DNA of 64,000 bases from Minisyncoccota bacterium (lineage in GTDB: Bacteria > Patescibacteriota > Minisyncoccia > Phycocordibacterales > XYD1-FULL-46-19), in the NCBI GenBank assembly GCA_041664425.1, contig JBAYKU010000001.1, forward strand, positions 29,272 through 93,271. Direction: 5' to 3'. This document shows positions 48,335-64,000 of the stretch, piece after piece. Positions within the stretch are counted from its first letter, which is position 1. Each line of letters opens with the position of its first letter. Both the position numbers and the translations under genes were made by a program. The notes under the pieces were generated by a model. The model saw only the letters and a list, made by a program, of their open reading frames with translations. It did no database searches and was not told the DNA's origin.

Positions 48335-48354
48335 TGTTTTTAATACGGGGATGA

Positions 48355-48741
48355 TCGGCTTTGATAGGAAGTCTCATTCTTCTAGTGTATGCCGAGGATT
48401 CTAACTGTCTCGTAAAATCTGTTAGAAAAATGCAAATGCCAACAATACTGGCAAAAGCGTAGTAAGTCCTTACTTCGCTCCGGCTTTCGCTCTAGCTTAG
48501 CTAGACCCATTGTCGGTGTTTACTCCAACGTTTCTTCCGGCTGGTTGGCAGTAAACATTTTCGCAAGTCGGAATCGTGCGCCAGAGGTGCTCCGCTCTGG
48601 TGACCTAAAATAATTGGAGATCGATTAAAAAGTTTTCTGTTCGTCTTATAGCTTTTTGATTTAAACAAATTAGACGATCTACGCATATAGAGTCTATTAG
48701 AGTGCCTTTTTACACGGCGGTTCGATTCCGCCCATCTCCAC
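48355..48741 (+). ncRNA. ssrA: tmRNA (ssrA)
   Basis: 5' end GGGGATGATCGGCTTTGATAGGAAGTC and 3' end GGCGGTTCGATTCCGCCCATCTCCAC (tRNA-like T-arm and acceptor with a G3-U wobble). An internal tag ORF ends ...APAFALA-stop. CCA is not encoded. Confidence 0.8.
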
Positions 48742-57447: not shown

Positions 57448-57521
57448 GCGCCTGTAGCTCAGCTGGTTAGAGCACGGAGCTTATACCTCCGCGGTCCCTG
57501 GTTCGAATCCAGGCGGGCGCA
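57448..57521 (+). tRNA. tRNA-Ile with anticodon UAU
   Basis: Cloverleaf: acceptor gcgcctg/cgggcgc, D-arm gctc...gagc, anticodon stem cggag/ctccg with loop cTTATAc (anticodon TAT), T-arm cctgg-ttcgaat-ccagg. No encoded CCA. Confidence 0.75.
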
Positions 57522-57527
57522 CTAATT

Positions 57528-61626: not shown

Positions 61627-61718
61627 GGAGAGGTGGCTGAGTGGCCGAAAGCGCCTCACTGCTAACGAGGTAGGGGTTTTAAAGCCCCTCGAGGGTTCGA
61701 ATCCCTCCCTCTCCGCCA
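61627..61718 (+). tRNA. tRNA-Ser (anticodon GCU) with long variable arm and encoded CCA
   Basis: Acceptor ggagagg/cctctcc, anticodon loop cTGCTAa, variable arm gtaggggttttaaagcccctc, T-arm gaggg-ttcgaat-ccctc, then gCCA. Confidence 0.85.
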
Positions 61719-61817
61719 GGACAATTTAGTATCGGTTAGACCCATATAATACTCCAAAAGATATGGTTTACAGATACATCAAAAAAACACCGACGGAATT
61801 TCGTTAGTGTTTTTTGG

Positions 61818-62756
61818 TTATTTGCCACGATTCTTTTTTCTTGCAGCAATTTCTGGCACACCTTGACCAGGAGTTATGATAGTTTGGGCTTTCACATTTT
61901 TGAGCCTTTGTACTAATTTTGCCATTGATACACCTGTACGTTTTCTTTCCTCTATCATATTCGCAATATCGTCTCCAGATATGGTTGTTCCCTTATCTGC
62001 CTTAATCATTATCCCTACGTTAAAATCAGCGTTTTCTTCGTCGTCGGTATATCTCATTCCATCAATCAATTCTTCTGGGGTCATATGGTCAAAAACCGTT
62101 TGCATTCCTGCACCGTGAATATGTTTAGCTTTTAGTCGATCAAACTTGTCATTTTTAACGGCAAAAGAAAATTTATCATAGTCATCAAACGGGATGTGAA
62201 ATCCATTGTAGTTTATAATGACATTGCCATTAACTTTCATTTGAAAATGAAAGTGCGGGACCCTACCTTCCTGGCGATCTTTATGGCCAGCCAAATCTCC
62301 TTGGGAGCACGAGAATGACCATTCAAGATGTTTATACTTTATTGTTTCTTCAATTACCTTTGACGAAGATTTTTCTTCAACCAAATCGTTGATGTTCTTA
62401 AATGGTTTCTCGCAATTTGCAACCCAGCGCAAATAAGCTTCTAATCGGTGGAAACCTTTGTTTTTGAATAACAGAGGGAAATGTTTCTTTTTAAATCCTT
62501 TCGGTTTAAGTAGCCAATGGAAACATGGTTTTCTCTCAGAGAAATGTGTAAGTGGATAACCACAATAATTGCACCTTCCTTTTAATAAGGCAGTTTTTAA
62601 TTCTTGAAAATCCCTCTCATTTATCTGGTGCTCTTTCTCGCTTTCTTTGGCCAGTTGCTCTGGAGACAAACTGTTGAGATAGTCATTAAGTTTATTAAAT
62701 CTCTCATCTTCATCCATAGACGAAACCATTAAACTCTCTTTGGGAAGATTATTCAA
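61818..62756 (-). CDS. Hypothetical protein co-transcribed with the serine recombinase (C-x2-C...C motif)
   Basis: 312-aa ORF with a 4-nt overlap with the recombinase stop. No recognised family. Confidence 0.45.
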   Translation of the reverse strand: MNNLPKESLMVSSMDEDERFNKLNDYLNSLSPEQLAKESEKEHQINERDFQELKTALLKGRCNYCGYPLTHFSERKPCFHWLLKPKGFKKKHFPLLFKNKGFHRLEAYLRWVANCEKPFKNINDLVEEKSSSKVIEETIKYKHLEWSFSCSQGDLAGHKDRQEGRVPHFHFQMKVNGNVIINYNGFHIPFDDYDKFSFAVKNDKFDRLKAKHIHGAGMQTVFDHMTPEELIDGMRYTDDEENADFNVGIMIKADKGTTISGDDIANMIEERKRTGVSMAKLVQRLKNVKAQTIITPGQGVPEIAARKKNRGK

Positions 62757-64000
62757 TTATTTGTCAGGGTCAAGTTTTTATCTTTATAGACAATCCTCGA
62801 TCTCAAGTTCGCTAGTAGCTCTCGTTTCTCGGTAGTTGTGCCTTCCTTGAGAATATACTTGGCATAATTGCGGATGTCGGTTTCTGGATTGGTTATGATT
62901 TTCCCTTTGGCCCCAAGTACCGAACGTTGGAATATATTAAACCTGGCAATTTCTTCTTCCAGTTTTTGTCTCATGCCCAGCTCGTTGATATTTACCTTAT
63001 CGAGGATTTTAAGCAATTCGGTAATTAGTTCCTCTTCTCGGATGTATTTATTTTTGCAGTTACGATCTCTGGCTCGGGAGCATGAATAGTAGATATAACG
63101 ATTGGCTCCGCCACCGACCAATTGTTTCCATTTCTCTTCAGCCGAGATGCCTGAGCCACAATAACCGCAAGTGAATAATTTGGTGAAGGAAAATTCTTTG
63201 GTTTCTCTGACAATCTGATCACGCTTTAATTGAGCCTTGGCTTTTTCAAACAAGTCTTGGTCAATAATTGGCTCGTGTTTGCCGGTATACCAATTACCAC
63301 TTTCTTTGGGATGTTCAAAAACCCCATAATAAAAAGGGTTGTCTAAAATCCTATAAATACCACTTAAGGTTAACGGCTTGTTGCCTCTAGTATAAAAATT
63401 CAATTCAAATTTTAGCCAGTTAAATATCTTTCGGCCGGAGTAATGCTCGTAGGCTACTTTCTCAAACATCTTTTTGATAATTGGGGCTCGGGCTGGATCA
63501 ATTAATATCTGACATTTTTTGTCCATCATCTTTTGATTGAGATACCCCAGTGGGGCCACCCCTGGCCACAGGCCCATCTCGACCCTCGCTCGCAATCCAC
63601 GCTTCACATTTACGCTCTTGTTGTCGTTTTCTAACTTGGCCGTGCTACCAAGGATCATTAACAAAAATTTCTCATTTGGGTTGTTGGTAAATCGCTGACC
63701 GTAAGTCCTGATTTCGTGGAGTTTGCCCGAATCCATCAAATCCACGATTTTGCCTAAGTCCCCAGCGTTTCTTGATATGCGGTCAGGGGCCCAGGTCAGA
63801 ATACCATTAAATTTACCTTGTTTTAGCTCCTCGATAATCTCATTAAAAACTGGCCTTTGCCCGGTCTCCTTAGCCGAATGCGACTCTCGCTTCATTGTCA
63901 CAATCTCTAGATTTTCCCGCTCGGCCAGCTGGAGCATCTCCTTAATTTGGCTATCGATGCTCAAAACCTGCCTTTCCTCAGATTCAGTACTTTTCCTCGC
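62753..64000 (-). CDS. Large serine recombinase (integrase/transposase type). Its N-terminus, including the predicted catalytic Ser region, lies beyond the window end.
   Basis: The frame is open to base 64000. Resolvase-domain motif ...GQRPVFNEIIEELKQGKFNGILTWAPDRISRN, a recombinase domain, and zinc ribbon CGYCGSG...YYSCSRARDRNC. Confidence 0.75.
   Translation of the reverse strand, partial: ARKSTESEERQVLSIDSQIKEMLQLAERENLEIVTMKRESHSAKETGQRPVFNEIIEELKQGKFNGILTWAPDRISRNAGDLGKIVDLMDSGKLHEIRTYGQRFTNNPNEKFLLMILGSTAKLENDNKSVNVKRGLRARVEMGLWPGVAPLGYLNQKMMDKKCQILIDPARAPIIKKMFEKVAYEHYSGRKIFNWLKFELNFYTRGNKPLTLSGIYRILDNPFYYGVFEHPKESGNWYTGKHEPIIDQDLFEKAKAQLKRDQIVRETKEFSFTKLFTCGYCGSGISAEEKWKQLVGGGANRYIYYSCSRARDRNCKNKYIREEELITELLKILDKVNINELGMRQKLEEEIARFNIFQRSVLGAKGKIITNPETDIRNYAKYILKEGTTTEKRELLANLRSRIVYKDKNLTLTNN

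What the first reader, a model, noticed from the sequence alone, without database searches (positions are those of the whole stretch)
61627..64000. tRNA-Ser(GCU) next to a large serine recombinase operon at the window edge: likely end of an integrated element
The recombinase at 62753 to beyond 64000 is a large serine recombinase (resolvase-domain motif ...DRISRN, recombinase domain, Cys zinc ribbon). It is translationally coupled to a 312-aa C-x2-C protein of unknown function. The tRNA 3' end faces them. Large serine recombinases commonly integrate phages and ICEs at tRNA 3' ends.
Basis: partly seen in the sequence, partly recalled or inferred. Interest (0 to 1): 0.5.

Follow-up and report, generated by a model that had tools for sequence, protein, structure and literature searches.

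The report
Serine-integrase defence island at tRNA-Ser
The window ends inside a small mobile island that sits against the 3' end of a serine tRNA gene in an ultra-small (Patescibacteria) bacterium; it carries a Gabija anti-phage system and its recombinase belongs to a very large, highly conserved family that, unusually for serine integrases, always sits at tRNA genes.

Summary
tRNA-Ser(GCU) lies at 61627-61718 (+). Converging on it, on the minus strand, are a 303-aa zinc-type protein and a complete 442-aa large serine recombinase (LSR) that runs 81 bases past the window.

The public contig shows a full Gabija system (GajA, GajB) beyond the LSR, with atypically low G+C.

The host is a Paceibacteria bacterium. 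Of 53 relatives with the same tRNA-Ser–RecG neighbourhood, 47 lack the junction motif.

In 132 loci encoding related LSRs, the first tRNA after the LSR is convergent in 55 cases and co-directional in none. It is tRNA-Ser in 45. A conserved 25-nt motif, GGACAATTTAGTATCGGnnnGACCC, abuts the tRNA end at fixed spacing (candidate attL).

Cargo in these loci is mostly restriction-modification, Shedu, TOTE, CBASS and retroelements.

A divergent host (RecG 63% identical) carries the same LSR at the same tRNA. The protein is 98% identical but the DNA only 86% (dN/dS 0.01), and the cargo differs on both sides.

The "end of an integrated element" reading is therefore supported. The premise that LSRs commonly use tRNAs is not general knowledge, no tRNA repeat is expected or found, and attR remains unidentified.

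The 303-aa protein has a confident predicted fold with no known match.

The parts
61627..61718 (+). tRNA-Ser(GCU), intact. It forms the host-side arm of the junction (B arm of the candidate attL).
   Evidence: ARAGORN. It is 100% identical to the tRNA-Ser(gct) of the divergent host in L224. It lies upstream of RecG in most of 80 Paceibacteria relatives.
61719..61743 (+). 25-nt junction motif GGACAATTTAGTATCGGTTAGACCC, directly after the CCA end of the tRNA. It is the candidate element-derived half-site (P' arm) of attL.
   Evidence: The motif occurs at fixed spacing after the tRNA in about 45 loci with related LSRs. Only 6 of 53 RecG-syntenic tRNA-Ser(gct) flanks have it and 47 lack it. Nucleotide homology between L001 and L224 stops exactly at its end. 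A tRNA-less copy preceded by CACCGCCA occurs in the phage-like contig L170.
61781..61816 (.). A-run, imperfect hairpin (ACACCGACGG..CGTTAGTGT), then T-run, immediately after the stop of the 303-aa gene. It looks like a bidirectional terminator.
   Evidence: Read directly from the sequence. The consensus scan did not flag it because the stem has mismatches, so this is an inference only.
61818..62729 (-). 303-aa protein of unknown function ('p303'), with a C2CH zinc-type motif. It occupies the variable slot between the LSR and the tRNA.
62753..64000 (-). Large serine recombinase, C-terminal 415 of 442 codons. The gene continues to window-equivalent position 64081.
   Evidence: Pfam Resolvase + Recombinase + Zn_ribbon_recom. 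PHROG 95 integrase, E 7e-66. Full gene on contig k141_548959. At least 7998 homologous 90%-clusters at E <= 1e-50. dN/dS is 0.011-0.013 against L224 and L222.

Best explanation
The window ends inside an integrative island whose integrase is the 442-aa LSR. The host is a Paceibacteria (Patescibacteria) bacterium.

**Layout (shown).** Reading outward from the tRNA:
- tRNA-Ser(GCU)
- the 25-nt motif
- the p303 gene
- the LSR gene, reading toward the tRNA
- a divergently transcribed Gabija system (GajA and GajB)
- a 57-aa ORF
- a FadL-type outer-membrane-like gene
- an IS30-like fragment at the contig end

- The crossover is the 2-bp staggered exchange typical of serine recombinases.
- The tRNA therefore stays intact, and only a few bases are shared between the two junctions.
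- This leaves attL, made of the tRNA end plus the motif, next to the LSR. An attR lies at a far end that is not on the contig.

**Cargo.** The cargo is anti-phage: Gabija is a GajA ATPase/TOPRIM nuclease with a GajB UvrD-type helicase.
- Cargo occupies two variable slots, one between the tRNA and the LSR and one beyond the LSR.
- These slots are exchanged between lineages while the LSR protein is kept almost unchanged.

**p303.** It is a recurrent but facultative passenger directly downstream of the LSR. Its role is unknown; it could be an accessory or directionality factor, or a defence gene.
For: **Anatomy**
- Layout and LSR domains.
- Gabija: GajA E 7e-221 and GajB E 1.5e-136 in PADLOC.
- The Gabija region has 1-kb G+C of 0.325-0.352. 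This is below the minimum of 0.364 for the other 61 kb of the window, whose mean is 0.436 with sd 0.03.

**Presence and absence among relatives**
- tRNA-Ser(gct) is syntenic with RecG in most of 80 relatives.
- Only 6 of 53 evaluable flanks carry the motif.
- In one clade a conserved host gene block lies from 53 bp to more than 6 kb from the tRNA. The LSR-bearing locus L011 is at about 6 kb.

**Site specificity of the LSR clade**
- The first tRNA downstream of the LSR is convergent in 55 loci and co-directional in 0. It is tRNA-Ser of five different anticodons in 45.
- More distant LSRs sit at tRNA-Gln, Asp, Glu, Asn and Trp.
- The motif keeps a fixed spacing from CCGC. The three bases between CCGC and the motif go with the motif subtype, not with the tRNA.

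**Horizontal spread**
- L224 has RecG only 63% identical, yet its LSR is 98% identical in protein and 86% in DNA, at the same tRNA. Homology is confined to the tRNA plus motif, the LSR gene and the OMP gene, and the cargo differs in both slots.

**Cargo and candidate attP elsewhere**
- Cargo in related loci is dominated by defence genes.
- Candidate attP: the phage-like contig L170 has LSR, then CBASS, then a tRNA-less CACCGCCA plus motif, then an amidase and a LysM protein.
- Several direct copies of the motif occur in L224 and L134.
Against: - attR was not found. No inverted or direct second copy of the motif, and no tRNA fragment, lies in the 6.9 kb between the tRNA and the contig end.
- The far boundary at L001 1555 is only a break in homology with relatives. 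It could be a module boundary, because the OMP gene beyond it is itself variable (absent in L222).
- No excised circle or empty site from the same species is available. The 'empty' sites come from species whose RecG is at most 66% identical.
- The exact crossover is unresolved. L089 and L224 carry roughly 21-22-nt tRNA-like 3' fragments next to internal or distal motif copies, which would fit a crossover further inside the tRNA.
- The two arms of the candidate attP do not show the inverted symmetry usual for LSR sites.
- Very strong purifying selection (dN/dS 0.01) is unusual for a purely selfish integrase.
Confidence: 0.72

Rival explanations
1. The LSR is a domesticated resident. It is no longer, or never was, the integrase of this island. 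It is a long-term chromosomal gene next to tRNA-Ser that marks or anchors a hotspot. Cargo turns over by homologous recombination or transformation, using the conserved tRNA and LSR genes as homology arms, or the LSR captures LSR-less cassettes in trans.
For: - The LSR has dN/dS 0.011-0.013 with saturated dS of 1.3-2.2, so its protein is far more conserved than RecG.
- The same LSR sits at the same locus with different cargo on both sides in L001, L222 and L224.
- Motif-positive flanks without any LSR occur in L039 and L073.
- Stacked motif copies flank LSR-less segments, such as Fic plus TOTE in L224.
Against: - 47 of 53 syntenic relatives lack the motif, so the feature is not an ancestral fixture.
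- The LSR and OMP genes are far more similar between L001 and L224 than the hosts are, which needs horizontal transfer.
- Family members occur in a phage-like contig with a tRNA-less site.
- At 86% nucleotide identity the LSR gene is a poor homology arm.
Confidence: 0.18
2. It is a decayed prophage or satellite remnant. The LSR is the integrase of a former Patescibacteria phage whose structural genes have been lost, leaving the integrase, accessory genes and defence genes.
For: - 52 related LSR loci come from IMG/VR viral contigs.
- Terminase_6N hits occur next to three of them.
- L170 has amidase, LysM and a 938-aa protein beyond the site.
- PHROG 95 'integrase' matches at E 7e-66.
Against: - No phage structural, lysis or replication gene lies in the 6.9 kb between the tRNA and the contig end.
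- Most related loci carry only defence cargo.
- The close relatives L222 and L224 also show only defence and unknown genes up to host-like histidine kinase genes.
Confidence: 0.07
3. The LSR acts as a local invertase or resolvase, for example for phase variation or dimer resolution, and its position next to the tRNA is incidental.
For: - Some public sources name family members 'DNA invertase Pin-like'.
- The tRNA-Ser orientation relative to RecG differs among relatives.
- An inverted pair of sites lies upstream of the LSR in L134.
Against: - The protein has the recombinase and zinc-ribbon domains that define integrase-type LSRs, not the small invertases.
- 55 convergent against 0 co-directional tRNAs, plus a fixed-spacing motif, cannot be incidental.
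- No inverted partner site exists in L001.
Confidence: 0.03

Closest known systems
Phage-type large serine integrases (phiC31, Bxb1, TP901-1, A118)
   Same: The domain architecture is the same: resolvase catalytic domain with a nucleophile serine, recombinase domain and zinc ribbon. The int gene lies next to the att site at one end of the element. No long direct repeats are expected at the junctions.
   Different: Known members integrate into protein-coding genes or intergenic sites. This clade sits at the 3' end of tRNA genes, which the literature treats as unreported or rare for serine integrases (PMC7192596). At 442 aa it is at the short end of the family. The usual inverted symmetry of attP arms is not evident. 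Its activity is untested.
SCC elements (SCCmec) mobilised by the CcrAB/CcrC serine recombinases
   Same: From my own knowledge: SCC elements insert at the extreme 3' end of a conserved housekeeping gene (rlmH/orfX) without inactivating it. Cassettes accrete in tandem at the same site, including cassettes without their own recombinase. Here, stacked motif copies (L224, L134) and LSR-less motif-positive flanks (L039, L073) look similar.
   Different: The target here is a tRNA gene, not rlmH. There is a single LSR rather than a ccrA/ccrB pair. The cargo is anti-phage defence rather than antibiotic resistance. The host phylum is Patescibacteria. The resemblance to SCC is by analogy only; no sequence comparison was made.
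tRNA-targeting genomic islands with tyrosine integrases (P4-like and others)
   Same: The island sits at the tRNA 3' end with the integrase gene adjacent to the tRNA. It shows presence/absence polymorphism, defence cargo and tandem accretion.
   Different: The recombinase family is unrelated (serine, not tyrosine). There is no displaced tRNA fragment of tens of bases at the far end in L001. At most about 4-6 bases (CCGC/CCA) appear to be shared between sites.
TIGER-predicted serine-integrase islands in t(m)RNA genes (Mageeney et al. 2020, PMC7192596)
   Same: These are computational predictions that a minority of serine integrases use tRNA genes (14 of 297).
   Different: Those were a few scattered cases in complete RefSeq genomes, flagged as needing proof. 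Here a whole clade with thousands of members shows the association consistently, with a conserved junction motif.
Serine-recombinase-associated defence systems (RADS; PMC13552941)
   Same: A serine recombinase gene serves as a marker of neighbouring anti-phage systems. The cargo survey here gives the same picture.
   Different: RADS concerns small serine recombinases (invertase-like) in Bacillota and Bacteroidota, without a tRNA target. Here the recombinase is a large serine recombinase in Patescibacteria.
Gabija defence system
   Same: GajA (AAA_15 ATPase plus OLD-type TOPRIM) and GajB (UvrD-like helicase) are adjacent and match PADLOC models over their full length (E 7e-221 and 1.5e-136).
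   Different: Nothing unusual was noted. GajB is short (361 aa), and a divergent Gabija occupies the equivalent place in L221 and L222.

Membership tests
Large serine recombinase (serine integrase) | N-terminal resolvase-type catalytic domain with nucleophile serine and conserved arginines | tested here: met
   PF00239 E 8e-19. YARKSTESE and DRISRN are read in the translation.
Large serine recombinase (serine integrase) | Recombinase domain followed by a zinc-ribbon domain | tested here: met
   PF07508 E 3e-15 and PF13408 E 6e-10. The Cys cluster CGYC...CSRARDRNC is present.
Large serine recombinase (serine integrase) | Catalyses unidirectional attP x attB recombination with a 2-bp crossover | not testable with these tools
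   This needs a recombination assay. Only junction comparisons are available.
Site-specific integrative genomic island | Integrase gene at one end, next to a junction with a conserved host gene | tested here: met
   The LSR gene lies about 1 kb from the tRNA-Ser 3' end, with the motif at the junction.
Site-specific integrative genomic island | Absent from the same site in related genomes | tested here: met
   47 of 53 RecG-syntenic tRNA-Ser(gct) flanks lack the motif. The host gene block lies 53-380 bp from the tRNA in the tightest sites. Caveat: these relatives are distant, with RecG at most 66% identical.
Site-specific integrative genomic island | Both junctions (attL and attR) identifiable | tested here: inconclusive
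   A candidate attL was found. No attR lies in the 6.9 kb between the tRNA and the contig end. The homology break at L001 1555 may be only a module boundary.
Site-specific integrative genomic island | Atypical base composition | tested here: met
   This holds for the Gabija part only: 0.325-0.352 against a window minimum of 0.364. The LSR (0.42) is typical of the genome and p303 (0.37) is near the 5th percentile.
Classical tRNA-integrating island (tyrosine-integrase type) | Direct repeat of a tRNA 3' segment of tens of bases at the far end | tested here: not met
   There is no second copy of the tRNA 3' 25-mer in L001, even allowing up to 6 mismatches. One related locus, L089, does have such a copy 13.2 kb away.
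Prophage or ICE | Phage structural/lysis genes or conjugation genes inside the element | tested here: not met
   The genes up to the contig end are Gabija, a 57-aa ORF, a FadL-like OMP and a transposase-like fragment. Only 6.9 kb between the tRNA and the contig end could be examined.
Gabija | Adjacent GajA (ATPase + TOPRIM) and GajB (UvrD-like helicase) | tested here: met
   PADLOC GajA 7e-221 and GajB 1.5e-136, full length. Pfam AAA_15, OLD-like_TOPRIM and UvrD-helicase.
Recombination directionality factor (as a role for p303) | Consistently encoded with its integrase and required for attL x attR | tested here: inconclusive
   p303 is adjacent to the LSR in L001, L228, L230, L231 and L232. 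It is absent from about 130 other LSR loci, and it occurs without an adjacent LSR in L002, L003 and L005. Function is not testable here.

The most novel reading that the evidence does not exclude
Patescibacteria may carry a phylum-wide platform that is unlike any characterised serine-integrase system.

- A single, almost invariant LSR would recognise the universally conserved 3' end of tRNA-Ser (other tRNAs in sister clades).
- It would serve both to integrate whole elements, including phages, and to accrete or exchange LSR-less defence cassettes in tandem at that tRNA.
- This would resemble SCC elements or integrons, but be built on a tRNA attB.
- The housekeeping-level constraint on the LSR (dN/dS 0.01) would then reflect selection by the host for continual renewal of its defence repertoire.
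- The orphan-fold zinc protein p303 would be a new accessory or directionality factor of this system.
Probability: 0.3. Interest if true: 0.8.

Novelty: new variant of a known kind. Interest (0 to 1): 0.6.

Why it matters
Serine integrases are the main tools for inserting large DNA into genomes, and they are thought to avoid tRNA genes. A clade with thousands of members that consistently sits at tRNA 3' ends would revise that view. It would also offer integrases whose natural target is among the most conserved sequences in bacteria, which is useful for engineering uncultivated or non-model organisms.

It also gives a first concrete picture of how reduced-genome Patescibacteria may acquire and swap anti-phage systems. 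The systems seen here and in related loci are Gabija, restriction-modification, CBASS, Shedu, TOTE and retroelements.

Finally, it flags a widespread, strongly conserved protein family (p303) whose confident predicted fold matches nothing known.

Tried and rejected
1. **Direct or inverted repeats of the tRNA 3' end or the motif in L001.** None were found beyond chance matches. I judged this uninformative for a serine recombinase.
2. **A loose regular expression for the motif.** It gave mostly noise and I replaced it with a weight matrix.
3. **A mirror-image P arm at the far side of related elements.** No hit was consistently above background, so attR could not be defined by motif.
4. **G+C as evidence for the whole island.** This holds only for Gabija. 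The LSR has typical genomic G+C.
5. **Treating the OMP gene as fixed host flank.** I rejected this as certain because L222 lacks it at the same place, and because it is far more similar between L001 and L224 than RecG is.
7. **p303 as an obligate partner of the LSR.** I rejected this, although it is a recurrent neighbour in one subclade.
8. **A crossover in the T-loop.** I considered this because of the tRNA-like fragments in L224 and L089. I judged it less likely, because near-identical motifs follow quite different tRNA 3' ends. It is not excluded.
9. **The consensus promoter/terminator scan.** It gave nothing above shuffled expectation.
Full report
**1. The observation**

ARAGORN places tRNA-Ser(GCU) at 61627-61718 on the + strand. 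Two ORFs on the minus strand converge on its 3' end.

- **The recombinase.** ORF 62753..>64000 matches Pfam Resolvase, Recombinase and Zn_ribbon_recom and PHROG 95 'integrase'. It contains YARKSTESE, DRISRN and a four-cysteine cluster. It is a large serine recombinase (LSR).
- **The second ORF.** ORF 61818-62756 codes for 312 aa from a TTG that overlaps the LSR stop. The public gene call and 54 aligned homologues start at the ATG at 62729, giving 303 aa and a 23-nt gap. I call this protein p303.

**2. What lies beyond the window**

p303 was found on ENA contig k141_548959 (98,045 bp). Locus L001 is the reverse complement of the window end, with L001 position x equal to window position 68757 - x. 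The contig stops 4,756 bp past the window.

- The LSR is complete at 442 aa.
- Divergent from it are a 549-aa AAA_15 plus OLD-TOPRIM protein and a 361-aa UvrD-type helicase. PADLOC calls them GajA (7e-221) and GajB (1.5e-136), so this is a full Gabija system.
- Next come a 57-aa ORF, a FadL/Toluene_X-type protein, and a 39-aa gene end at the contig edge.
- The Gabija region has 1-kb G+C of 0.325-0.352. That is lower than any 1-kb stretch of the other 61 kb of the window (minimum 0.364, mean 0.436, sd 0.03).
- The LSR (0.42) is compositionally ordinary, and p303 (0.37) is near the 5th percentile.

**3. Host and empty sites**

A RecG query retrieved 80 loci, all from Patescibacteria/Paceibacteria genomes. 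The best is 64-66% identical.

- tRNA-Ser(gct) lies upstream of RecG in most of them.
- In L063, L024, L007, L011, L071, L042 and L078, an LSR homologue lies immediately 3' of that tRNA and converges on it. The others have none.
- In one clade a conserved block of host genes follows the tRNA at distances from 53 bp (L035) to more than 6 kb. The LSR-bearing L011 is at about 6 kb.
- The flank is therefore a variable hotspot, and the LSR is not an ancestral fixture.

**4. The LSR clade and its target**

The LSR family is very large. At least 7,998 90%-identity clusters score E <= 1e-50, and hundreds of them are 82-87% identical to this protein. Where named, they come from Patescibacteria.

I fetched 80 metagenome loci with LSRs at least 65% identical and 52 IMG/VR loci.

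- In every locus where a tRNA follows the LSR within 7 kb, it is on the opposite strand: 55 convergent, 0 co-directional.
- 45 of the 55 are tRNA-Ser, with anticodons GCT, ACT, GGA, TGA and CGA. More distant LSRs sit at tRNA-Gln, Asp, Glu, Asn and Trp.
- The distance from the LSR stop to the tRNA ranges from 115 bp to about 6 kb. There is thus a variable slot, which p303 occupies in the window.

**5. The junction**

A block follows directly after the tRNA at fixed spacing: CCGC-NNN-GACAATTTAGTATCGGnnnGACCC. In the window it is 61719-61743.

- Among RecG-syntenic relatives, 6 of 53 flanks have the block and 47 do not.
- The three bases after CCGC go with the motif subtype rather than with the tRNA. 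Near-identical motifs follow quite different tRNA T-arm and acceptor sequences.
- I therefore place the exchange at the extreme 3' end of the tRNA gene, in the CCGC/CCA region. The motif would be the element-derived half-site of attL.
- This fits a serine recombinase, which needs only a 2-bp overlap. It explains why no repeat of the tRNA end is found in L001.
- A tRNA-less copy, CACCGCCA plus motif, lies 2.8 kb downstream of an LSR in the IMG/VR contig L170. It sits between a CBASS pair (Cap15 and SMODS) and an amidase, a LysM protein and a 938-aa protein. This is what an unrecombined attP in a phage-like genome would look like.

Some points remain unexplained.
- L224 and L134 hold several direct copies of the site.
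- Internal copies in L224 and a distal copy in L089 are preceded by roughly 21-22-nt tRNA-like 3' fragments.
- The two arms of the candidate attP lack obvious inverted symmetry.
- The exact crossover and the way copies stack are therefore open.

**6. Close relatives of the island**

The FadL-like protein has 92-94% identical homologues on Paceibacteria contigs. This led to L218-L227.

L224 shows the whole locus, in this order:
- histidine kinase, OMP, a 99-aa gene, DUF3276, PDDEXK_1
- three small genes, GmrSD, an EcoRI-type methylase
- the LSR
- DUF3644
- two tandem site copies
- Fic and a TOTE helicase
- the motif, tRNA-Ser(gct), two genes, RecG

Between L001 and L224:
- Nucleotide homology is confined to the OMP gene (89%), the LSR gene (86%) and the tRNA plus 25-nt motif (97%). 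The homology ends exactly at the end of the motif.
- RecG is only 63% identical in protein.
- The LSR protein is 98% identical, with dN 0.015, dS 1.3 and dN/dS 0.011. The OMP gene gives dS 0.55 and dN/dS 0.06.
- The hosts are thus distant, the island modules have moved between them, the cargo differs in both slots, and the LSR protein is under housekeeping-level constraint.

L222 has the methylase/GmrSD module, a divergent Gabija and no OMP gene. The island is therefore a mosaic of cassettes. The homology break at L001 1555 (window-equivalent 67202) is not necessarily the element's end.

**7. Cargo in the family**

Pfam scans covered 78 ORFs from the LSR-to-tRNA slot and 122 ORFs just upstream of the LSRs.

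- They gave mainly type I, IIG/MmeI, ISP and III restriction-modification, plus Shedu, TOTE, reverse transcriptases, DUF4238, Hypoth_Ymh and S24/LexA-type repressors.
- Only three ORFs were terminases. PADLOC agrees.
- DGR-like bAvd plus RT genes occur in L228, L229 and L231.

**8. p303**

- The family has at least 689 members that are 52-76% identical, almost all from Patescibacteria, with no domain annotation.
- Invariant residues suggest a C2CH zinc site (C53, C56, C69, H71) and a His/Asp cluster (H159, H161, H178, D185).
- Its closest homologues (73-74% identical) sit directly after an LSR in L228, L230, L231 and L232. They are collinear with L001 4635-6936 at 72-73% nucleotide identity. 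L229 links this module to a motif-bearing tRNA-Ser(gct) near RecG.
- Other members stand next to restriction or helicase genes without an adjacent LSR, and about 130 LSR loci lack it.
- I treat it as a facultative passenger. It could be an accessory or directionality factor, or a defence gene. Nothing here decides between these.

**9. Comparison with what is known**

- The recombinase is a member of the large serine recombinase family by all sequence criteria. Its activity is untested.
- The element works like a serine-integrase island. In its stacking and its LSR-less cassettes it resembles SCC elements (my own knowledge). Its target choice is that of tyrosine-integrase tRNA islands.
- Mageeney et al. 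[quoted passage not shown] They found 14 of 297 (4.9%) against 44.5% for tyrosine integrases, and wrote that such use 'has not been reported previously' and needs proof (PMC7192596).
- The association of small serine recombinases with defence systems has been described (PMC13552941).
- Three literature searches found no description of this Patescibacteria LSR clade or its tRNA target. That is not proof of absence.

**10. Verdict**

- The finding is real, and the 'end of an integrated element' reading is supported. Its premise needed correction, and the far end remains unidentified.
- The window's instance is one member of a large and apparently undescribed variant of serine-integrase elements.
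- Interest: 0.6.

Noticed in passing
window 57448-57522: A tRNA-Ile gene with anticodon TAT, which is uncommon in bacteria. It lies just upstream of recG. A tmRNA gene is at 48347-48741.
   Followed up: no
L025, L027, L031, L033, L035 and others; L088, L100, L175: ARAGORN calls 'tRNA-Ser(ACT)' genes next to tRNA-Ser(GCT) in many Paceibacteria relatives. They also appear as targets of the LSR islands. An ACU-anticodon serine tRNA would be unusual. I did not check whether these are real genes or miscalls.
   Followed up: no
L006, L015, L034, L049, L066 and others: 3' flank of tRNA-Ser(gct): Many LSR-free flanks contain a convergent tRNA-like 3' fragment (GCGGAG...GGGATTCGAA) interrupted by a hairpin. 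Together with the tRNA end it forms a long palindrome. It could be a degenerate or intron-bearing tRNA, a terminator, or a relic of earlier recombination.
   Followed up: partly
L001 239-1453 (window-equivalent 67304-68518): A FadL/Toluene_X outer-membrane-type protein (Pfam E 1e-36, G+C 0.51) in a Patescibacterium, a group generally considered to lack an outer membrane. It is 92-94% identical in L218, L221 and L224 and absent from the same place in L222, so it behaves as a mobile module.
   Followed up: partly
L001 1-120 (contig end): The contig ends in a 39-aa C-terminal gene fragment (..NNKPRKILGYRSALEVAEKAG..). From memory it resembles the end of IS30-family transposases. Pfam gives no hit. 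A repeated IS would explain the assembly break.
   Followed up: no
L224 12350-12530 (also L218, L225, L226): A tandem duplication of an ~80-nt unit, made of a tRNA-like 3' fragment (GTTCGAATCGTTCGTTCCCCGC) plus the junction motif. It lies between DUF3644 and Fic/TOTE inside the island.
   Followed up: partly
L134 9483-9654: An inverted pair of CACCGCCAGGACAA..TATCG sites about 130 nt apart, just upstream of an LSR gene. Three further direct copies lie downstream.
   Followed up: no
L228 12337-13449; L229 3385-4824; L231 7050-7400: Diversity-generating-retroelement-like genes (bAvd accessory protein plus reverse transcriptase) lie in the slot between the LSR-p303 module and tRNA-Ser.
   Followed up: no
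L039 and L073, 3' flank of tRNA-Ser(gct): The junction motif is present at the tRNA without any LSR homologue within 7 kb. In L073 a single 264-aa gene separates the motif from the conserved host block. These may be LSR-less cassettes or remnants.
   Followed up: partly
window 61818-62729 and family (P0001-P0120): p303 is a strongly conserved, Patescibacteria-wide protein family. Its predicted fold is confident (pLDDT 91) and has no detectable structural or sequence relative.
   Followed up: yes
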